From a virus: a DNA stretch of 64,000 nucleotides. The stretch is from IMG/VR virus record IMGVR_UViG_3300038451_000147, positions 1 through 64,000 of that record, one strand, 5' to 3'. Below are positions 14,803 to 61,233 of this stretch, in pieces. Every line of letters starts with the position of its first letter. Positions within the stretch are counted from its first letter, which is position 1. The translations under genes were made by a program, and so were the position numbers. The notes below the pieces were generated by a model. It ran no database searches. It worked only from the letters and a program-made list of their open reading frames with translations, and was not told where the DNA came from.

Positions 14803-16683
14803 ATGTCTGCGGCACAAGATTCCAATAAGGACGAGAACGCTGTAGTTCGTGCATTACGAGCCACAAGGATACTCGGCCCAAGGCAAGCAGGTTCTCCAAG
14901 GAGCCTTGATAACCCTACCCTTTCTGCATCCTACAAGCCACCCTTAGAGACACAGATAGGGCAAATCGAGAGGGGTGAGGCTTGGTGGAGAGACTTCGCT
15001 TGGGAAGAGTATGCGACTAAAGAGTTGCCCGGACTTGGACTTGGGTTCACAGTCTATCCTTACGTTGCTGTATGGGAGAAGATATGGGGCGCAGTCCCAA
15101 CAGAAGACTACCAGAAGTATAAACAATACTACGTTCAGGAACCGTTCATTCGGGCCACCATAGACTTCCACACTCAGATGACCATCTCACAGGGTTACGA
15201 ATTAGACTATCCACTAGCGACTGTAGTTCAGGATGTCAAACAGTTTCTTGATAGACACGACTTCCTCAATCTACTCAAGATAATGGTGAAGGATATGCTA
15301 GTCTTCGGCAACTCCTACACAGAGGTTGTGAGAACATGGTATTGCCACGAAACTGGCCACGACCTTGAAGCCCTCAGAATTTCTTATGAGGTCGAAGGCA
15401 AGGACGGAAAGGATAGTTACTGGTGGACAGACAGAGTGGACATTGCGGCTAGGCATGACAAGATGTATCCCACCCACAAACTGGAGAATCCCTACGGAGA
15501 GATTACCAGATTCAAGCCTCTTGACCCCATGTATATGCGAGTGAGAAGGGATGCCTATGGAACCATCCTTGGATACGTCCAATACTATGTATTCCCTCTA
15601 GTCACCTTCCTAGCAGATGAGATGATTCATCTCCGCTATATGCCTACTTCTTGGACGTATGAATCGGTCTATGGTGTCTCGATGCTACGCCCCATCCTCT
15701 TCCATCAGGAACTCATGAAGAACTATGAGGAGACGATGGGAGCCATCATGAACGTCTTCCTCAAGCCCATGTTCCTTGTCCATGTCGGCATCAATAGTGC
15801 GGGTGTCGTAGGACAGGAAGTGACTACGGCGCAGTATCAATCAGTGAGGAAATACTTCCAGACTGCACAGCCCGGACAGTCTATTGTAGTAAGAGCCGCC
15901 ACCCCGATAGCGATAGAACCAATCAACCCACCCATTGACAGAATGCAGTCTACGTCCTTCTGGCTTCAATGGTTGCACAACATGAGAACCTACGCTCTCT
16001 CAGTGCCGAAGTTCTTCACCGACCCTGCTGGACTGAACAGAGCCACAGCCCAGACCGTAGAGAGAGGATACTTCACATTCATCAACAGCAACAGACAGTC
16101 CCTCAACAGCCAACTAGAGAGGACGGTGATGATACTGGTCATGAGGTCTCTGTATGGCAAAGTTGCCGATGAACTGATTCATGAGTATGACGTTCCGAAG
16201 TTCATCTGGAAGCCAGTCAAAGAGGATTCCTTAGAAGACAAGGCCAAGACCTATATGCCCCTGTATGCTAGTCGCATCCTAACTAGAGACGAAGTGAGAA
16301 AGGCACTCGGCTTCGAGCCTCTAGATGTGGACGAGTTGACGGAAGAGATAGGCGAATCCGTTCCACCAATGCAAGGCGCAGGTACAGGTGCATTTGGGAT
16401 GACCAAAGAAGGAAGTCCGACCTTCGGAAGCCCAGACCGTGAGATGGCAACAAGACCCTCTCCAATGGGAGCAGAACTTGGTCGAGAGGGGCAACCGCCA
16501 GAAGAGAGACTGCCAGAGTACGGAGAAGACATCTTCTCCAAGACAGAACAGGACGCTAGAATAGAGGAACTTGAAGAGGGCATAGAAGACCTCAAGAGAC
16601 GGTTCCTGAAGGAAGAGCCGTTCACAGAAGAGACGATTAAAGACGAGATAGAGAGGCTCAAGATGCACACCCCGAAGAAGTAG
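14803..16683 (+). CDS. Portal protein
   Basis: MLVFGNSYTEVVR, FKPLDPMYMRVRRD.YG.I.GYVQ, EMIHLRY, YGVSML, ILTRDEVRKALGFEPL; acidic C-terminal tail. Confidence 0.9.
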   Translation: MSAAQDSNKDENAVVRALRATRILGPRQAGSPRSLDNPTLSASYKPPLETQIGQIERGEAWWRDFAWEEYATKELPGLGLGFTVYPYVAVWEKIWGAVPTEDYQKYKQYYVQEPFIRATIDFHTQMTISQGYELDYPLATVVQDVKQFLDRHDFLNLLKIMVKDMLVFGNSYTEVVRTWYCHETGHDLEALRISYEVEGKDGKDSYWWTDRVDIAARHDKMYPTHKLENPYGEITRFKPLDPMYMRVRRDAYGTILGYVQYYVFPLVTFLADEMIHLRYMPTSWTYESVYGVSMLRPILFHQELMKNYEETMGAIMNVFLKPMFLVHVGINSAGVVGQEVTTAQYQSVRKYFQTAQPGQSIVVRAATPIAIEPINPPIDRMQSTSFWLQWLHNMRTYALSVPKFFTDPAGLNRATAQTVERGYFTFINSNRQSLNSQLERTVMILVMRSLYGKVADELIHEYDVPKFIWKPVKEDSLEDKAKTYMPLYASRILTRDEVRKALGFEPLDVDELTEEIGESVPPMQGAGTGAFGMTKEGSPTFGSPDREMATRPSPMGAELGREGQPPEERLPEYGEDIFSKTEQDARIEELEEGIEDLKRRFLKEEPFTEETIKDEIERLKMHTPKK

Positions 16684-18000: not shown

Positions 18001-18257
18001 TGAACGACGAAGATATTGCTGACATCAGAGTAAACATAGCGTGTATACAAAAAGACATCGAGTTCATCAAAGATAGTCTTGGTGTCTTGAATCACAATAG
18101 CACAACGATGTCAGAACGCATCAGTGCGCTTGAGACAGCCCATAAGACCACTTCAGACTACAAGGACTTTGTTAAGAAACTCGCTTCGACTCTAGGTGGG
18201 ATGGCAGTCTTCGTTGCTACCCTTCTAGCGATACTCCGTTATCTCACCATTCTCTAG
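17997..18257 (+). CDS. Coiled-coil plus C-terminal transmembrane protein (holin/XhlA-like architecture)
   Basis: Heptad region followed by a single hydrophobic helix. Confidence 0.45.
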   Translation: MMNDEDIADIRVNIACIQKDIEFIKDSLGVLNHNSTTMSERISALETAHKTTSDYKDFVKKLASTLGGMAVFVATLLAILRYLTIL

Positions 18258-18907
18258 AGGCTCTTTCTCCATCTGTAGATTAAGGCAACAAGAAGTGCTA
18301 TGAGGAACAAGGTGAGACCTATAACAAGTATGAACCAATCTGGAACAGATGTAGAAGACGCTGTAGACGGCGTGACTGTCGTGGTCACTGTCTGAATAAC
18401 CGTGTTTGTGACTACTGGCAAAGTCAGGGTTATGGTAGTTGCAACAGTCTCAATCTGAGTAACACCGATTTGGACTATCTGTATCTCAGTTTGAGTTGTA
18501 GTGACACTTTGCATTTCTGTCGAAATCTGCGTAATTGTCACTGTAATAGGTGGAAGCGTCTTTGTATGAATCTTAGTCTGGGTCTGAGTTGTGGTGACAC
18601 TTTGCGTTTGTGTCTCAGTTTGTGTGTTTGTCACCGTAACTGGAAGTGTCTCCGTTTGAGTCTGGGTCTCAGTGGTGGTGAAATTCTGAGTCTGTGTTGA
18701 GGTCTGAGTCTCGGTATTGGTCTGCGTCTGAGTCACTGTAATAGTCGTTGGTGATATTACTGTGGATGTCGTTGTAACTGTGACCGTCTTAGTTGGGGTA
18801 GTAGATGTGGTAGTAGTGCAAGCCAATACTGGTGAGAGACTGATTGATAACGCAAGAGCGATGAGCGTCAGAACTAGGGCGTAGAATGCGAGACTCTTTG
18901 ACCTCAT
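18254..18907 (-). CDS. Thr-rich cell-surface protein
   Basis: Signal peptide, TQTQT/VTTT low-complexity stalk, C-terminal TM followed by RWRK. Confidence 0.8.
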   Translation of the reverse strand: MRSKSLAFYALVLTLIALALSISLSPVLACTTTTSTTPTKTVTVTTTSTVISPTTITVTQTQTNTETQTSTQTQNFTTTETQTQTETLPVTVTNTQTETQTQSVTTTQTQTKIHTKTLPPITVTITQISTEMQSVTTTQTEIQIVQIGVTQIETVATTITLTLPVVTNTVIQTVTTTVTPSTASSTSVPDWFILVIGLTLFLIALLVALIYRWRKSL

Positions 18908-19692: not shown

Positions 19693-19729
19693 AGAGGGGA
19701 TATAGGGGTATATCCCCATATACCCCTCT
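19693..19729 (-). terminator. Inverted-repeat element 3' of the pentamer array (putative terminator or 3' hairpin)
   Basis: GGGGATATA-GGGG-TATATCCCC and the overlapping GGGGTATAT-CCCC-ATATACCCC, both perfect 9-bp stems. Confidence 0.45.
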
Positions 19730-19743
19730 CCCTTCGTGATTCG

Positions 19744-20012
19744 CATCTGGGCTTGTCTGACCTTTTCTGTGCTACTCGCCTCTCTTCTCCTCTAATGCTT
19801 GGCTTGTCTTGGCTTGGCTAGTCTATACCTTTCTGAACTATTCTGTGCTCCTCTTTTCTGATGCTAGTCTAATCTGTTCTTCTCTTTGCTTCTCTGCATT
19901 TGTCTACACCTTTCTATGCCTATCTGTTCTGCTACTTGTCTGAACTTTGCTTTTCTTCTCTTATCTTCTCTATGCTAATCTAGCCCGTTCTTCTCTCCTC
20001 TTCTGCTAGTCT
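19744..20012 (-). ncRNA. Pentamer-periodic AG(A/C)NN array, putative guide RNA(s) for the adjacent RAMP protein
   Basis: 53 units (49 pentamers, 4 hexamers). 47/53 start with AG, 52/53 have G at position 2, 45/53 have A or C at position 3; the last two bases vary. Begins inside the RAMP stop codon. Confidence 0.8.
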
Positions 20013-20574
20013 AGACTTCTTCGATGCTGAAGTGACCGAACATTGTCTTGTATGAACCAACGCCAGCGAGACCTAATCGTTGCATTGCCTCTTGAACGTG
20101 GACTCGTTTGACCGGACTCATGTATTCGATTGTTGCTTTGGTTGACCAAGGAAGTTCTAAGATGGGTCGGCAGATGAGCATTTGACTGCCCTTCTTACCA
20201 CCAACATTGATTCTGTCCCAACGAAGCGTGTATTTGCATGTTCTTGGTTCAAGAGGTAGATAGGGTTCTCGAATGGTCACAATGTTATCTTGCACAAATT
20301 TCTTCAGGGCCGTGAATCCTTTCACTTGGATTGCGCCGCCAATACCTTCTAGTCCCTTCCGTATGTTGATACTAGGGATTGCTGGACGATTTTGGAAGAA
20401 ATGGCCCTTAGACTTGATGATGGCAGTCTTTTGCGCTTCTGTGAGGTCTCGTATTCCTTCCTCTAGTTTGCTCATAGCGAATGGTATAGAAATGTTGGGG
20501 TCTAAGTTGTTCCAAATTATGGGGTCAGTGCCAATGAGTTTGAAGGTCGCTGATTCTATCGTTGTATTTGTCAA
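20011..20574 (-). CDS. Stand-alone Cas7/RAMP-like protein (Vipr-like)
   Basis: FKLIGTDPIIWNN first strand, PAIPSINIRKGL, CRP....W....IEY, and C-terminal glycine-rich loop GLAGVGSYKTMFGHF. Confidence 0.75.
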   Translation of the reverse strand: MTNTTIESATFKLIGTDPIIWNNLDPNISIPFAMSKLEEGIRDLTEAQKTAIIKSKGHFFQNRPAIPSINIRKGLEGIGGAIQVKGFTALKKFVQDNIVTIREPYLPLEPRTCKYTLRWDRINVGGKKGSQMLICRPILELPWSTKATIEYMSPVKRVHVQEAMQRLGLAGVGSYKTMFGHFSIEEV

Positions 20575-21509
20575 ATTTTTCTTTTCACCCCCTTGTGTCG
20601 AAAGGACTCAAATACGGACATCCTGTCTTGCACAAACATAATCGGTTTTGCACTTGATTGTGATGGTTTGAATCTACCAAACACAGATTTCAAGTCGGGC
20701 GTGTAGTCAACACTTCCTATTGTTCTCGATACTATGAATTTGGCTATCTCCTGTTTAGAGAGAAGAATAGGTTTACCTTCATCCATTTTGCTATCATTCG
20801 GGTAGAGGTCAAAGACAGTGAGCCTATTCAATTTGCGAATGTGCTTACTCAGAAAGTCAATCTGTCGAAGGTTTGCCTCTAAGCAAGTCCGGTTTCTTTC
20901 GTCTCTGATTCTCCGTCTCAACCTCAGAACCTCACTTCTACTAAGACCTTCATTTTCACCAAGAGTCGCTCTTCGCCACAACTCTTCTGAGAGATGGCCC
21001 TTTTCAATACCCAAGCCAAAATGGAACGCCAAATGCTCTTGACTTGCACTTACTCCCGTTCCACTACGGCCTTTGAATGGGGTCATTATGTCAATCGCTA
21101 CCTCTGGTAATCTTATTCCAAGATTGGCTCTTATTCCGTAGTCCTTGAGAGCAGTAACATCCCACTCTACGAAATGGCCAATTATTCCGTCAGAGTTTTT
21201 AAGGTATTCATAACCCAACCTAGTCAAGTCTAGAGTCGTCCTTCCGTCTATTCCCAAAACAAACTGCTTCGGCGGCTTTGCAGTGAATTTGTTGTTCTCA
21301 AATATCAACTTTTGAATCCCTATCACTAGCAAAGACTTGTCTGGTTTCCTCATCATTTCGCCGGGTGCGTATGCTTCCAAATCAACTGAAGCCAAAGTCA
21401 GTCTCTTTCCTGTCTCAATACACTCTAGAACCTTGGGACAGAAGGTCTTCTTCAGACCTGAACTCATGGATGCGACTGTCAACCCAAGCAGAAACTCCTT
21501 TGCATTCAT
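20571..21509 (-). CDS. DEDD/RNase H-like exonuclease homolog, translationally coupled to the RAMP gene
   Basis: SVDLEA (ExoI), IIGHFVEWDV (ExoII), IDIM, S.EHLA...GLG..K; ExoIII looks degenerate; 4-nt overlap with the RAMP gene. Confidence 0.6.
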   Translation of the reverse strand: MNAKEFLLGLTVASMSSGLKKTFCPKVLECIETGKRLTLASVDLEAYAPGEMMRKPDKSLLVIGIQKLIFENNKFTAKPPKQFVLGIDGRTTLDLTRLGYEYLKNSDGIIGHFVEWDVTALKDYGIRANLGIRLPEVAIDIMTPFKGRSGTGVSASQEHLAFHFGLGIEKGHLSEELWRRATLGENEGLSRSEVLRLRRRIRDERNRTCLEANLRQIDFLSKHIRKLNRLTVFDLYPNDSKMDEGKPILLSKQEIAKFIVSRTIGSVDYTPDLKSVFGRFKPSQSSAKPIMFVQDRMSVFESFRHKGVKRKI

Positions 21510-21545
21510 GGCCTACCCCTTCTCGCCAACCTTTATAAAGATTAT
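21507..21545 (-). promoter_or_regulatory. Class A promoter of the exonuclease-RAMP-array operon
   Basis: AATC-TTTATAAA(21539-21532)-N22-ATG with GGGGT. Confidence 0.75.
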
Positions 21546-21549
21546 GGTT

Positions 21550-23034
21550 CTACCCCACAAGCCGTCTCTCGTTACAATGAAGGTGGAACGGAATCTGCAA
21601 TTTGAGAGGGGTCTTTTTGGTCGAATACTCTTCGGGAATATCGGGCCTTCCCTTGATTCCTAGCCCTTTCACAAGGTCTTCGATGGGCCAAGTCTCTTCC
21701 ACGATGTTCAGTTCCACGTTGTCCACTACATTGGTGAGGATATTGGCCACCGTCCTGTCGGATTCCTCTGCCCGATACCATATAAAGCCTAGACCTTCAG
21801 CCAGCATCCCCATGTCAGACTGCTCAAAGTTGTCCGAAATCTCGTCTCCATAGTCTCCCTCTGCTGAGAATGGGGTCTTGAAGAAGATGTTGATGGACTT
21901 GTCGGCTCCCACCACTAGCATAACCTTCTCGTTCTCATCGTTCATGTAACCTGCTACATCGCCAGTGCTGGCTGTCGGAGTGACGGGGTGCATATGGACA
22001 GTCCCTATCAATTCCTCTCCTTCATGTAGTTGCTCGTTAGGCTCCAGAACAATCTCTCTGTCCTTGCCGAACTGCTCCCCTACAACTCCCAATTCACCGT
22101 GTTTGGCTTTGATGAGAAAACCACCCGCTTCATTGTCATTGGTAGTCGAGTATTCAATCATCATCATAAGGTCGTTGTAGAGCCTTTCAGGTATCTCAAT
22201 CTTGTCTGGCACTTCAAGCCCTTCTGCTGTGATAGGGCGGTCTTTGTCTGGCTCTTCTGGTTCTGGGATGTCGGGGTCTGGATTCAGTTCTCTGTCTGGA
22301 TTGCTAGGGTCTGGCTCTCCTTTCTTTGTCGTTGGTTGCATCCAACCACAATCTATACATCTGAAAGCACTTTCACCTGCGGGAACCATCCACATCGAAC
22401 CACAAGCAGGACAAACACGATGACCACTACTTGTGAGGCTAGGGTCTGGCTCATCCTTCACACTCCCACTTCTATCAGCATCGCAACCACATTCCAAGAA
22501 GGTGCATATATCACTCACATCCACTCCTTCATCCCGAAAGAGACCTTCTTCTGCTTCGTGGTCACAATCGCATTCCTTCCCTTCCTCTCCCTTTGAATGA
22601 CCATAATACTTCTTGCCCTTGTGAGTGTGATACTCCTCAATGGGGTCTATCAATTCGCCACAATACTCACATCTCTTGTAGTTGATGGCTTCACCTTTAG
22701 GAAGAGTTTCTGTTATGGTGTGCCACGCATGAGGGCCATCTTCAAAGGTAGATACAGGAAAGGTTACTCTACATTCTACACAATACCACATTTTTTCTTC
22801 CTCTTCATCGGACTTTCTATAAGTGCCACCTGTCGCTGGCCCTTCTTTGCCAGCCTCATTGCAATCCTTACAGTTGTTTGGGCAGACATCGTGCTCCATA
22901 ATGCACTCTATACAAGAAGGTTCGCAATCCAAAGAATACGATTCCTCATTGAACTTCTCGATGTTGGGATAGTTCTTTTGGCCTACCTTCGGTGCTGGCT
23001 CTTGAGGCGATGCTGGCGCGTAGGGTGGAATCAT
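21550..23034 (-). CDS. Acidic modular protein with Zn fingers and a C-terminal JAB/MPN+ metalloprotease domain
   Basis: NEAGGFL...IGTVHMHP....ASTGD matches the JAMM motif E...HxH...SxxD. Confidence 0.8.
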   Translation of the reverse strand: MIPPYAPASPQEPAPKVGQKNYPNIEKFNEESYSLDCEPSCIECIMEHDVCPNNCKDCNEAGKEGPATGGTYRKSDEEEEKMWYCVECRVTFPVSTFEDGPHAWHTITETLPKGEAINYKRCEYCGELIDPIEEYHTHKGKKYYGHSKGEEGKECDCDHEAEEGLFRDEGVDVSDICTFLECGCDADRSGSVKDEPDPSLTSSGHRVCPACGSMWMVPAGESAFRCIDCGWMQPTTKKGEPDPSNPDRELNPDPDIPEPEEPDKDRPITAEGLEVPDKIEIPERLYNDLMMMIEYSTTNDNEAGGFLIKAKHGELGVVGEQFGKDREIVLEPNEQLHEGEELIGTVHMHPVTPTASTGDVAGYMNDENEKVMLVVGADKSINIFFKTPFSAEGDYGDEISDNFEQSDMGMLAEGLGFIWYRAEESDRTVANILTNVVDNVELNIVEETWPIEDLVKGLGIKGRPDIPEEYSTKKTPLKLQIPFHLHCNERRLVG

Positions 23035-60522: not shown

Positions 60523-61233
60523 TCATTCTTCCTCACCCTCTTCCTCTTTCTCTGGCATCTTGGTCTCGAAGTCTTCGATGGTAAGAGGCTCCTTTGTCTC
60601 ATACTTGCAGATGTCTTCCATCTTCATCTCCTCTAGCCAGCCACTATGGAGTAGGATAGACCGGGCCAGAAGGTAGTAAACGGTGGCGATGGCCTTGGCT
60701 CCCACGTTGTTAGCCGGAATAGCGATATCCACATCCTCAAAGGTGGCGTTGGTGTTGCAGATGGCTATGACAGGGATGCCTATGCTAGAGGCTTCATACA
60801 TGGCTCGTCTGTCTCCTCTCATGGCTTCCCCTATCTTCTGTGGGACTCCATTAGTAGGGTCTGAGACCACCAGACAGTCAGCATCCACATAACTCTTGAT
60901 TTGAGAGTTGGTGAGGCTTCCCGCAACGAGACGGTGCATAACTATTGGGATGAGGGTAGCGGCATTGAAAGACTTGAGGGCATTGTCGAATCTGGGGTCT
61001 GTAGCATAGAACAAGGGTCTCATTGCAGGGTCTTGTCCATGTCGGCTTATGTGTTTGCCCACCACATCCAGTTTGTTCAGAATGGCGTTGATGTCCATCA
61101 ATGGATTGCCAGCCGGAGAAACCTCAGAGACATAGATGGCCATGTCTTTGGTGACACCGCCCTTTACCCCGATGTGGATGCCAGTGGCTCTGAGAGCGTC
61201 CTCTGTCAGCATCTTGGGAAGGATGAGACTCAT
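60523..61233 (-). CDS. rps2: Archaeal-type 30S ribosomal protein uS2 homolog
   Basis: GIHIG, TKDM, RLVAGSLTN, VVSDP, EASSIGIPVIAICNTN, VDIAIPANNVGAKAI...YYLLARSIL. Confidence 0.9.
   Translation of the reverse strand: MSLILPKMLTEDALRATGIHIGVKGGVTKDMAIYVSEVSPAGNPLMDINAILNKLDVVGKHISRHGQDPAMRPLFYATDPRFDNALKSFNAATLIPIVMHRLVAGSLTNSQIKSYVDADCLVVSDPTNGVPQKIGEAMRGDRRAMYEASSIGIPVIAICNTNATFEDVDIAIPANNVGAKAIATVYYLLARSILLHSGWLEEMKMEDICKYETKEPLTIEDFETKMPEKEEEGEEE

What the first reader, a model, noticed from the sequence alone, without database searches (positions are those of the whole stretch)
19693..21545. Candidate non-CRISPR RNA-guided system: exonuclease-like gene, stand-alone Cas7/RAMP and an AG(A/C)NN pentamer array
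Seen: one early-class promoter precedes a 312-aa DEDD-like ORF, coupled (TTGA overlap) to a 187-aa ORF with RAMP hallmarks (G.DP first strand, IP...IR..L, RP...W, terminal GxxGxG..FG.F loop). Starting in that gene's stop codon is a 269-nt non-coding tract of 53 units with a fixed AG(A/C) and a variable dinucleotide, followed by hairpins. No cas1/cas2 or repeat-spacer array was seen. Known: Cas7 RAMPs polymerise along guide RNA with a fixed nucleotide period. From memory, recently described viral VIPR systems pair such a protein with GGY-NN pentamer RNAs that read DNA non-contiguously. Inference: this is an archaeal-virus version with a different constant triplet (AGM) and an accessory nuclease-like gene, possibly aimed at competing viruses or host genes.
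Basis: partly seen in the sequence, partly recalled or inferred. Interest (0 to 1): 0.97.

Follow-up and report, generated by a model that had tools for sequence, protein, structure and literature searches.

The report
Archaeal-virus VIPR system with AG-type guides
A 105-kb peat virus carries a divergent copy of the VIPR RNA-guided DNA-binding system published in 2026, using AG(A/C)-NN instead of GGY-NN repeats, and two of its four guides spell genes of a mobile element integrated in Nitrososphaerales archaea from the same peatland.

Summary
On the minus strand, a 312-aa gene overlaps by 4 nt a 187-aa gene, whose stop codon starts a 269-nt tract of 53 AG(A/C)NN units ending in a hairpin. No other tract in the 105-kb genome comes close (chain score 68 against 11; shuffles reach at most 21).

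The reading is largely right, but the class is published. The 187-aa protein is a full-length Vipr homologue (hhalign 97.7%, E 2e-12 to SUSP1-type Viprs; PDB 36pp E 9e-6). Its G2-contact residues are kept and its G1-contact residues are replaced, which fits AG replacing GG.

New here:
- AG(C/T)ANN hexamers, always 5n+1 nt apart, cut the array into four guides of 10-14 units.
- A 75%-identical relative has its own array with the same grammar.
- Under the published 1-nt-skip rule, guide 4 matches 20/20 the 3' end of an integrase gene in a Nitrososphaerales MAG from SPRUCE peat.
- Guide 1 independently hits a MazE/AbrB gene 7 kb away, at the head of a restriction-modification operon. A second genome has the same pair of targets.

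The exonuclease call for the accessory gene is unproven, and transcription could not be tested. The scan has noted VIPR loci on other DNA many times (820 notes, at least 469 genomes). Verdict: a new variant of a known kind.

The parts
21531..21540 (-). TATA-box-like element (CTTTATAAAG) about 22 nt upstream of the vap start. Presumed operon promoter.
   Evidence: Sequence. CTTTATAAA occurs 7 times and TATATAAAG 8 times in the genome, typically ahead of genes. Function is inferred, not tested.
20571..21509 (-). Accessory gene (vap-like), 312 aa, translationally coupled to vipr. Possible DnaQ-like 3'-5' exonuclease fold, unproven.
   Evidence: ORF. Homologues of 80% and 42% identity exist, and the 80% one (L003) also sits directly upstream of a vipr homologue. 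There is no Pfam, NCBIfam, PADLOC or PDB match. Weak leads: phrog_192 'DNA polymerase exonuclease subunit' at E 0.007, and ESM Atlas neighbours at 0.87-0.89 that are all viral PF01612/PF13482 exonuclease clusters. The AF2 model has pLDDT 41 and is unusable. Unrelated to SUSP1 vap1.
20011..20574 (-). vipr gene, 187 aa, TTG start overlapping the vap stop. The RAMP-like subunit that polymerises on the guide RNA.
   Evidence: see membership test. The long TTG-started form is the correct one: homologues and the hhalign match cover residues 5-187, whereas the gene caller's 154-aa form (P0003) would lose the first beta strand.
20002..20012 (-). Array leader: AGACT + hexamer AGCAGA, starting in the vipr stop codon. 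First copy of the boundary element.
19931..20001 (-). Guide module 1 (71 nt, 14 units, ending in boundary AGACA-AGTAGC). The variable dinucleotides decode to G-D/E-T-L-...-D-Y-D.
   Evidence: It matches the MazE/AbrB gene at G136:C11:84347 (22/24) and at G001:C4:68021 (20/24). Shuffled-order controls reach at most 18.
19860..19930 (-). Guide module 2 (71 nt, 14 units, ending in AGACT-AGCATC). No target found.
   Evidence: Searches were negative.
19794..19859 (-). Guide module 3 (66 nt, 13 units, ending in AGCCA-AGCATT). No target found.
   Evidence: Searches were negative.
19744..19793 (-). Guide module 4 (50 nt, 10 units). Its reverse complement decodes to Q-G-W-D/E-F-V-T-P-L-P.
   Evidence: Exact 20/20 match at G001:C4:61047-61075 in the 3' end of an integrase gene. 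18/20 at G136:C11:78290-78318.
19693..19743 (-). 3' tail: about 14 nt of degenerate units, then a GGGG/TATAT palindromic hairpin (19729-19693). Probable 3' cap or terminator of the array transcript.
   Evidence: Fold at -27.9 kcal/mol, z -3.4, with 0 of 200 shuffles as stable. The palindrome is unique in the genome. The relative L001 has a different hairpin at the same place, followed by U-tracts.

Best explanation
This is a VIPR (Viral Interference Programmable Repeat) locus of a tailed virus of Nitrososphaerales archaea.

One operon encodes an accessory protein and a Vipr protein, and runs straight into a 'staggered' array of four guide RNAs. Each guide has 10-14 pentamers of the form A-G-(A/C)-N-N. 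The guides are separated by an 11-nt boundary, AGAC(A/T)-AG(C/T)ANN, whose hexamer shifts the frame by +1.

By analogy with the solved SUSP1 complex, one Vipr protomer binds each pentamer. It buries the constant AGM triplet and presents the two variable bases, so that the filament reads double-stranded DNA as NN-x-NN-x, with one base skipped.

Shown here by computation: homology of the protein, the grammar of the array and its conservation in a relative, and sequence matches of two guides under exactly this code.

Inferred: that the tract is transcribed and processed at the boundaries, that Vipr binds it, and that binding silences the targets.

The two guides conserved between relatives point at a 12-18-kb integrated element of Nitrososphaerales. 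One reads the conserved C-terminal motif of its tyrosine integrase. The other reads the small MazE/AbrB-type gene at the head of an operon that, in the SPRUCE genome, carries a DpnII-like restriction-modification system. The likely purpose is to immobilise or silence a resident rival or defence element during infection. The published SUSP1 system does this to its satellite's recombinase.
For: Protein.
- The family profile A1 hits PDB 36pp_D 'SUSP1 Vipr protein' at E 9.2e-6, over residues 36-182 against 38-190.
- hhalign of A1 against four phage Viprs gives 97.7% probability, E 2.1e-12, 171 columns.
- phrog_4652 is hit by SUSP1 Vipr at 1.4e-96, by P0006 at 3.3e-12 full length, by P0004 at 1.7e-4, by P0005 at 1e-3 and by P0001 at 0.012.

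Contact residues, mapped from that alignment onto the residues named in 10.64898/2026.04.26.720927.
- G2 contacts are kept: R138 aligns with R136 (invariant) and W178 with Y175 (invariant).
- G1 contacts are replaced: H17 aligns with N22 and D177 with S174.
- The Y3 pocket is remodelled: E71/M72 align with I69/N70, C173 with A170 and R179 with K176.
- This is the pattern expected if GGY became AGM.

Array.
- It is unique in the genome and far beyond shuffles.
- All phase breaks are +1 slips. Spacings are 71, 71 and 66 nt here and 86, 66, 81, 61 and 61 nt in L001.
- All 10 slip hexamers begin AG[CT]A, against 10% of ordinary units (P about 1e-10).
- The relative L001 (Vipr 75% identical) has a 430-nt array directly after its stop codon. 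Identity to this array by phase is A 0.79, G 0.91, M 0.66, N 0.62, N 0.57.
- Two guides are shared between the two arrays and the others are unique.

Targets.
- The full 10-unit guide 4 has an exact hit in 'Nitrososphaerales archaeon isolate SPRUCE 287'. It lies in frame in the last 20 codons of a 427-aa integrase (Pfam Phage_integrase, 5e-5).
- Guide 1 was not used to find that contig. It and its L001 orthologue hit the same contig 7 kb away, at 20/24 and 21/22. Chance for 21/22 over the contig is about 8e-7, and shuffled-order controls reach at most 18.
- That hit is in a 56-aa MazE/AbrB gene (PF04014, 2.9e-7) followed by N6_N4 methylase and DpnII-like endonuclease genes.
- In 301 genomes of the same order, guide 4 with up to 2 mismatches finds 10 places in 9 genomes, and the reversed control finds 0. 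The eight loci examined all have it at the same C-terminal QGW[DE][FY]V..LP motif of integrase homologues 24-34% identical.
- Genome G136 has both targets 6 kb apart in a syntenic element.
- Orthologous guides track alleles: W1 scores 22/24 on G136 and 20/24 on G001, while L1-2 scores 21/22 on G001 and 17/22 on G136.
- Only the register of positions 4-5 with a 1-nt skip gives these matches, and position 3 is not read.
- There are no self-targets.
Against: - There is no direct evidence that the tract is transcribed, processed or bound.
- No confident structure was obtained for either protein (pLDDT 31 and 41), so the RRM, thumb and G-loop fold is inferred from alignment only.
- Taken alone, the exact guide-4 hit is not significant. 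About 2 exact hits are expected by chance in 596 Gb and 2 were found. The case rests on the second guide, the recurrence at one integrase motif and the second genome.
- The second exact hit lies in an Acidimicrobiaceae MAG, in a doubtful ORF, and is unexplained.
- Guide 1 of this window matches the SPRUCE allele at only 79-83%.
- Guides 2 and 3 have no target in anything searched.
- There is no per-guide 3' tail or pseudoknot as in type II VIPR.
- Only one independent relative's array could be inspected. The contigs of P0005 and P0006 could not be fetched.
Confidence: 0.82

Rival explanations
1. Same machinery, different purpose: the system is chiefly anti-defence. Guide 1 sits on the first gene of a host restriction-modification operon and blocks its transcription. 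The integrase match is secondary.
For: The guide-1 site lies about 100 nt into the first gene of an operon containing MazE/AbrB, a 91-aa ORF, an N6_N4 methylase and a DpnII-like endonuclease. Other follow-ups in this scan reported VIPR guides on R-M genes (unchecked notes).
Against: In the second genome (G136) the cargo after the AbrB gene differs: only 40% identity over 80 residues of a methylase. The conserved parts of the element are the integrase, a PD-(D/E)XK protein (94%) and AbrB. So the guides follow the element's core, not the R-M cargo. Silencing transcription would not remove endonuclease that is already made.
Confidence: 0.3
2. Same recognition, but the outcome is destruction rather than silencing. 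The 312-aa accessory protein is a 3'-5' exonuclease recruited to the R-loop, and it degrades the target DNA.
For: phrog_192 'DNA polymerase exonuclease subunit' at E 0.007. All ten best family-bearing Atlas neighbours fall in the DnaQ/RNase H-like exonuclease clan at 0.87-0.89. D43-x-E45 and D117 are invariant in the three homologues. The VIPR paper links nuclease-type vap genes to target destruction.
Against: There is no Pfam, NCBIfam, PDB-profile or PADLOC match. The Atlas scores are below the tool's own 0.9 lead threshold. No clear ExoIII motif is present. The AF2 model is unusable. In the paper, nuclease-bearing types are the host-encoded ones.
Confidence: 0.25
3. The tract is not a guide array. 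It would be a purine-rich spacer, a protein-binding DNA repeat or a decayed remnant, and the target matches would be coincidence.
For: No expression data. Two of four guides have no target. The exact guide-4 hit count equals the chance expectation.
Against: Strict AG phase is kept over about 700 nt in two diverged arrays, with only +1 slips at one conserved hexamer. The array sits directly after a Vipr homologue in both. A second guide converges on the same contig at P about 8e-7. Nine of 301 genomes are hit against 0 for the control, and always at one integrase motif. Orthologous guides track alleles.
Confidence: 0.04

Closest known systems
Type II VIPR of Escherichia phage SUSP1 (Vipr + vap1 + four vrRNAs; bioRxiv 10.64898/2026.04.26.720920 and .720927; PDB 36pp)
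   Same: Homologous Vipr protein over its full length. It forms a two-gene operon with an accessory gene and is encoded by a virus. The guides are pentamers made of a constant triplet and a variable NN, with 10-14 units each. Targets are read as NN-x. The thumb arginine and G-loop aromatic that hold G2 are kept.
   Different: About 20% identity; only profile methods link the two. The triplet is AGM, not GGY, and both G1-contact residues are replaced. Guides are contiguous, separated by an 11-nt boundary with a +1 slip, instead of each having a roughly 40-nt pseudoknot tail. The accessory gene is unrelated to vap1. The host is an archaeon.
VIPR 'staggered' arrays and alternative repeats NNNGG / YNNNG / NNNNG (same paper, methods and fig. 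S18 legend)
   Same: Tail-less arrays in which the end of one vrRNA is the start of the next, offset by 1 nt. The repeat keeps a G before the variable part.
   Different: The figures and tables are not held, so I could not check whether an AGM-type array, this boundary element or this protein clade is among the 667 systems.
Non-canonical VIPR arrays found by the Evo-PIN language model (bioRxiv 10.64898/2026.10.21.760802)
   Same: Vipr-like fold next to 5-nt arrays whose fixed triplet is not GGY (GAC, CAC, WGT, TGH).
   Different: AGM is not among the examples named in the text (fig. S10 was not readable). Those clusters are described as having about 10 repeats, with no targets reported.
SUSP1 VIPR silencing of its satellite's excision recombinase (bioRxiv 10.64898/2026.10.15.759431)
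   Same: A virus guide aimed at the recombinase gene of an integrated element in the host, with the skip bases on codon wobble positions.
   Different: That case is shown experimentally in E. coli. Here the link is computational only, in archaea, and a second guide lies on a MazE/AbrB regulator.
Class 1 CRISPR Cas7 backbone (Csm3/Cmr4/Cas7)
   Same: RAMP-type subunit polymerising on guide RNA with a fixed nucleotide period and a thumb that flips bases.
   Different: There are no Pfam RAMP hits, no second RRM, no Cas5/Cas6/Cas10/Cas1-2 genes and no repeat-spacer array. The period is 5 with 2 bases read, not 6 with 5 read.

Membership tests
VIPR system | Vipr protein: homologue of the stand-alone RAMP-like Vipr family | tested here: met
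   PDB 36pp 'SUSP1 Vipr protein' at E 9.2e-6 with the family profile. hhalign 97.7%, E 2.1e-12, 171 columns against four phage Viprs. Chain through phrog_4652.
VIPR system | RRM core, thumb and glycine-rich loop in the 3-D structure | tested here: inconclusive
   The alignment places the thumb Arg (R136) and a C-terminal GxGxYKxxFG loop on the SUSP1 thumb and G-loop.
VIPR system | Adjacent non-coding array of 5-nt units with a conserved triplet and hypervariable NN | tested here: met
   Also present in the relative L001, with conservation by phase 0.79/0.91/0.66/0.62/0.57.
VIPR system | Canonical GGY triplet | tested here: not met
   The triplet is A(100%) G(100%) then A 68% / C 24%. The papers allow 'a related consensus' and list other triplets, so this marks a variant, not an exclusion.
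VIPR system | Guides of about 9-16 repeat units | tested here: met
   Modules of 14, 14, 13 and 10 units here and 12-17 in L001, delimited by +1 hexamers.
VIPR system | Invariant structured 3' tail on each vrRNA (type II) | tested here: not met
   Only an 11-nt boundary lies between guides, and there is one terminal hairpin. This is consistent with the published 'staggered' architecture rather than type II.
VIPR system | Targets read by the 1-nt skip rule (NN-x) | tested here: met
   Guide 4 scores 20/20 and guide 1 scores 20-22/24, only with positions 4-5 and skip 1. Other registers and skips stay at control level.
VIPR system | Minimal locus with one accessory (vap) gene, no cas genes or CRISPR array, on a virus | tested here: met
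   Two-gene operon. No repeat-spacer array in the window. The record is a complete 105-kb virus with terminal repeats, a portal, a terminase and PolB. cas genes were not searched with profiles across the genome.
VIPR system | vrRNA is expressed and co-purifies with Vipr; binding silences the target | not testable with these tools
   Needs small-RNA sequencing, pull-down and reporter assays.
DEDD (DnaQ-like) 3'-5' exonuclease, for the 312-aa accessory protein | Significant match to an exonuclease profile or structure | tested here: not met
   Pfam none at E <= 10. NCBIfam none. PDB single-sequence and profile searches none. Only phrog_192 at E 0.007 and Atlas neighbours at 0.87-0.89.
DEDD (DnaQ-like) 3'-5' exonuclease, for the 312-aa accessory protein | ExoI (DxE), ExoII (D) and ExoIII (Y/H-x-D) acidic motifs | tested here: inconclusive
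   D43-L-E45 and D117 are invariant in three homologues, and Y236-x2-D239 is a possible but off-spacing ExoIII. Three sequences are too few, and the model is unusable.
CRISPR-Cas Cas7 (RAMP, PF03787 and relatives) | Match to Cas7/RAMP profiles and association with a CRISPR array and other cas genes | tested here: not met
   No Pfam hit, no PADLOC hit, no array. The only trace is an Atlas RAMP cluster at 0.76.

The most novel reading that the evidence does not exclude
This clade is a natural re-specification of the VIPR constant triplet: GGY has become AGM through changes at the two G1 contacts and the Y3 pocket. It serves viruses of Nitrososphaerales, the order that includes soil ammonia oxidisers, as a programmable weapon against a family of integrated elements. 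It hits their integrase and their MazE/AbrB switch and thereby also shuts down the restriction-modification cargo. A new exonuclease-type accessory protein converts binding into degradation. If so, the locus gives a second, orthogonal Vipr-RNA pair, the first decoded VIPR targets in archaea, and a virus-host link for an uncultured peat virus.
Probability: 0.3. Interest if true: 0.75.

Novelty: new variant of a known kind. Interest (0 to 1): 0.6.

Why it matters
VIPR was described only in 2026, and its mechanism is worked out for one bacterial phage type.

- **Orthogonal pair.** This locus is a very sparse, deeply divergent branch: three homologues among 1.8 billion representative proteins. It uses a different constant triplet, and the residues that read the changed base in the solved structure are the ones that changed. 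That makes triplet specificity directly testable, by swapping N22/S174 with H/D and AG with GG. It also offers a possible orthogonal Vipr/guide pair for multiplexed DNA targeting.
- **Code holds outside bacteria.** The published NN-x code also holds, computationally, for a non-GGY archaeal system.
- **Host and opponent.** The decoded guides tie an uncultured 105-kb peat virus to Nitrososphaerales hosts. They also tie it to a specific 12-18-kb integrated element carrying restriction-modification genes. That is a concrete case of virus against resident element conflict in archaea.

Tried and rejected
- **Structures.** AF2 on the Vipr from a single sequence gave pLDDT 31. AF2 on the vap from a 3-sequence alignment gave pLDDT 41. 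Both are unusable, so no fold search was run.
- IMG/VR and GTDB scans with the protein or its profile found no relatives. GenBank phages gave nothing for either protein.
- **Expression.** No RNA holder is listed among the sequencing runs, so transcription could not be examined.
- **Period-5 Fourier power.** With fixed phase it did not single out the tract, because of the +1 slips. It was replaced by a chain score.
- **IMG/VR target scans with exact 8-unit cores.** Guides 2, 3 and 1 gave 10, 24 and 30 hits with no extension beyond chance. Units 3-10 of guide 4 gave 108 hits, nearly all from one marine phage family (phrog_36003, motif QGWEFVTP) in which units 1-2 do not match. I treat this as a look-alike motif, not a target.
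- **Other negative target searches.** No self-targets, and no targets in the relatives' fragments. Guides 2 and 3 gave no hit in G001 with up to 3 mismatches. Guide 2 gave none in 301 genomes of the order. Guide 3 was not run on the order. With 2 mismatches, the guide-1 consensus hits in the order (7 genomes against 4 control hits) are at chance level, apart from G001 and G136.
- **Host assignment by uS2.** Viral uS2 is only 38-40% identical to the uS2 of G001 and G136, so it does not refine the host.
- **Complex prediction.** Complex prediction was not used.
Full report
**What is there.**
All features lie on the minus strand. A TATA-like CTTTATAAAG (21531-21540) precedes a 312-aa ORF (21509-20571). 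Its TGA overlaps the TTG start of a 187-aa ORF (20574-20011).

From the AG of that gene's TAG stop (20012) down to 19744 runs a 269-nt tract of 53 units. In the 37 clean pentamers, positions 1 and 2 are A and G without exception. Position 3 is A (25) or C (9), and positions 4 and 5 are close to uniform.

A chain score for 'AG every 5 nt, slips penalised' is 68 for this tract. The next best chain for any dinucleotide on either strand of the complete 105,335-bp genome scores 11 outside this tract. A thousand dinucleotide-preserving shuffles of the tract give 6.7 +/- 2.6, with a maximum of 21.

The tract is unstructured as RNA (z -1.0). A stable palindromic hairpin at 19729-19693 follows it (-27.9 kcal/mol, z -3.4), and that palindrome is unique in the genome.

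**The genome.**
The window is the first 64 kb of a complete virus record with direct terminal repeats. It encodes a portal, a large terminase, a HerA-like ATPase and a family-B polymerase. It also encodes a ribosomal protein uS2 that fits the archaeal/eukaryotic model far better than the bacterial one (1.7e-34 against 7e-12). Near-identical and related contigs come from peat and wetland metagenomes.

**The protein is a Vipr.**
VIPR systems are real and were published in 2026. They consist of a stand-alone RAMP-like Vipr protein, an accessory vap gene and vrRNAs of 9-16 GGY-NN pentamers. The vrRNAs read DNA as NN-x (bioRxiv 10.64898/2026.04.26.720920 and .720927).

The 187-aa protein has only three homologues among 1.84 billion representatives, at 75%, 44% and 30% identity. 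A profile of the four hits PDB 36pp 'SUSP1 Vipr protein' at E 9.2e-6.

I fetched the Viprs of phiSUSP1, Mycobacterium phage LittleE, a Vibrio phage and phiHSIC. hhalign of the two alignments gives 97.7% probability and E 2.1e-12 over 171 columns, nearly end to end.

All four phage Viprs belong to phrog_4652, at E from 1e-63 to 1e-97. Family member P0006 matches that PHROG full length at 3.3e-12, and the window's protein at 0.012. Membership of the Vipr family is therefore established by sequence.

No usable 3-D model was obtained. The gene caller's 154-aa version starting at M34 would remove the first strand. The TTG-started form is the conserved one.

**Why AG instead of GG.**
The structural paper names the contacts of the constant triplet in SUSP1 Vipr:
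- G1 is held by H17 and D177.
- G2 is held by R138 and W178.
- Y3 is held by E71, M72, C173, T175 and R179.

In the hhalign alignment, the G2 contacts are kept: R138 aligns with R136 and W178 with Y175, both invariant in the family. The G1 contacts are both replaced: H17 aligns with N22 and D177 with S174 (S/S/A/A across the four members). The Y3 pocket is remodelled: E71/M72 align with I69/N70, C173 with A170 and R179 with K176.

This is the pattern expected if G1 became A, G2 stayed G and Y3 became A/C. It is an inference from an alignment at about 20% identity, not a structure.

**Grammar of the array.**
The only departures from the 5-nt phase are four hexamers: AGCAGA, AGTAGC, AGCATC and AGCATT. 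They lie 71, 71 and 66 nt apart.

The relative L001 (contig Ga0187866_1049825, Vipr 75% identical) has a 430-nt AGMNN array starting in its own stop codon. It has six hexamers spaced 86, 66, 81, 61 and 61 nt apart. So every spacing is 5n+1.

All ten hexamers begin AG[CT]A, against 10% of the 128 ordinary units (P about 1e-10). Eight of the ten follow AGAC(A/T).

The array is thus a head-to-tail series of guides, with 14, 14, 13 and 10 units here and 12-17 in L001. The guides are separated by an 11-nt constant boundary that shifts the frame by one. [quoted passage not shown] It differs from the tailed type II guides.

Between the two arrays the conserved letters are A (0.79) and G (0.91). The variable pair is least conserved (0.62 and 0.57). 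Two guides are shared and the rest differ, as expected for a guide repertoire.

**Targets.**
There are no self-matches under any skip rule, other than the array itself. Exact 8-unit cores scanned against IMG/VR gave only chance-level hits, or a look-alike motif in a marine phage family.

The full 10-unit guide 4 was written as NN-x and scanned against one genome per GTDB species. It gave two exact hits, which is what chance predicts for 596 Gb.

One of the two is in 'Nitrososphaerales archaeon isolate SPRUCE 287', from a peat site. It lies in frame in the last 20 codons of a 427-aa tyrosine integrase, at the peptide QGWDFVTPLP, with the skip bases on wobble positions.

I then fetched the whole 108-kb contig and scored all ten guides from both viruses against it, with shuffled-order controls. 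Guide 1 and its L001 orthologue, which played no part in finding the contig, hit one site 7 kb from the first. They score 20/24 and 21/22. Controls reach at most 18, and chance for 21/22 over the contig is about 8e-7.

That site is in frame in a 56-aa MazE/AbrB-type gene (PF04014, 2.9e-7). The gene heads an operon with an N6_N4 methylase and a DpnII-like endonuclease. A convergent Dam-class methylase and a divergent PD-(D/E)XK gene sit beside it.

In 301 genomes of the same order, guide 4 with up to 2 mismatches finds 10 places in 9 genomes, while the reversed control finds none. The eight loci examined all put the match at the same C-terminal QGW[DE][FY]V..LP motif of integrase homologues only 24-34% identical overall.

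One of those genomes, G136, also has the MazE/AbrB site 6 kb from its integrase site. The two elements are syntenic: integrase 33%, PD-(D/E)XK 94% and AbrB 63% identical. A flank that is 98% identical bounds them at about 17.6 and 12 kb.

The orthologous guides track alleles. This window's guide 1 fits the G136 allele better (22/24 against 20/24). L001's version fits the SPRUCE allele better (21/22 against 17/22).

Only the dinucleotide at positions 4-5 with a 1-nt skip gives these matches, and position 3 is not read. Guides 2 and 3 have no target in anything searched.

**Mechanism, and what is shown versus inferred.**

Shown by computation:
- homology to Vipr;
- array grammar and its conservation in a relative;
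- convergent, allele-tracking, in-frame matches of two guides under the published code.

Inferred from the SUSP1 work:
- the operon transcript continues into the array;
- the array is cut at or near the boundaries;
- one protomer binds each pentamer, hiding AGM and presenting NN;
- the filament binds duplex DNA and blocks transcription.

Binding at the integrase 3' end and inside the first gene of the MazE/AbrB operon would immobilise or silence a resident integrated element. This parallels the demonstrated silencing of a satellite recombinase by SUSP1 (10.64898/2026.10.15.759431). Whether the point is rivalry with the element or relief from its restriction-modification cargo is open. The variable cargo between the two genomes favours the element core as the target.

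**The accessory gene.**
It is conserved and coupled to vipr in the relative. It is unrelated to SUSP1 vap1 or to the LittleE neighbour gene. No curated library or solved structure matches it.

Two weak leads point to a DnaQ-like exonuclease: phrog_192 at E 0.007, and Atlas neighbours at 0.87-0.89 that all fall in the exonuclease clan. The DxE and a later D are invariant. The AF2 model failed. 'Exonuclease' stays a hypothesis at roughly one in four.

**Novelty.**
The class, the skip rule, non-GGY triplets, staggered arrays, archaeal-virus carriers and recombinase targeting are all in print. This scan has also flagged VIPR loci many times on other DNA (820 notes in at least 469 genomes).

What I could not find in the readable text:
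- an AGM triplet with co-varying contact residues;
- this boundary element;
- this accessory gene;
- decoded targets of an archaeal VIPR.

The supplementary tables and figures of those papers were not available. The clade may therefore already be listed among the 667 systems. I class the finding as a new variant of a known kind.

Noticed in passing
window 19704-19722 and 21586-21699: In four peat and wetland runs, 713-nt contigs join the palindrome (19 nt, exact) to the 3' end of the 494-aa ORF (114 nt, 79% alike), with only 38 other letters between. Their depth exceeds this virus's in three of the four runs (e.g. 81 against 27 in X1). This suggests relatives that lack the whole vap-vipr-array cassette. 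One side is only 19 nt, so it is a hint only. It fits the vipr-vap presence/absence polymorphism reported for SUSP1-like phages.
   Followed up: partly
L001:1140-1904 against window 16030-16353: In the relative, the array is followed almost directly by the portal gene's 3' end (76% aa identity). Here about 3.3 kb of small genes lie between them. The cassette sits in a variable region.
   Followed up: partly
G001:C4:59832-77400 (loci L181, L187): A roughly 17.6-kb integrated element in a Nitrososphaerales MAG. It carries a tyrosine integrase, an IS4/5 transposase fragment, a PD-(D/E)XK protein, a MazE/AbrB gene, an N6_N4 methylase, a DpnII-like endonuclease and a Dam-class methylase. A roughly 12-kb syntenic element with different cargo lies at G136:C11:76973-89100.
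   Followed up: partly
L141:1315-1806, L178:2321-2629, L182:746-774: The peptide QGW(E/D)FVTP recurs in unrelated small proteins: marine phage phrog_36003, phrog_25396 and an Acidimicrobiaceae ORF. It also recurs at the C-terminus of the archaeal integrases. It may be a small conserved module.
   Followed up: partly
window 60523-61233 (-): Virus-encoded ribosomal protein uS2 of archaeal/eukaryotic type (TIGR01012, 1.7e-34, below the curated cutoff). It is 38-40% identical to the uS2 of two Nitrososphaerales genomes.
   Followed up: partly
window 18254-18907 (-): A 217-aa ORF made largely of Thr-rich TQT/TET repeats, with a signal-like N-terminus and a C-terminal membrane anchor.
   Followed up: no
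genome 91057-91104 (outside the window): A short run of GG every 5 nt (9 anchors, chain score 11), the next best 5-nt periodic stretch in the genome. Probably chance.
   Followed up: no
window 21550-23034 (-): A 494-aa Cys-rich ORF next to the cassette has no Pfam or NCBIfam match at the thresholds used. A first-stage note calls its C-terminus a JAB/JAMM domain. Not tested here.
   Followed up: no
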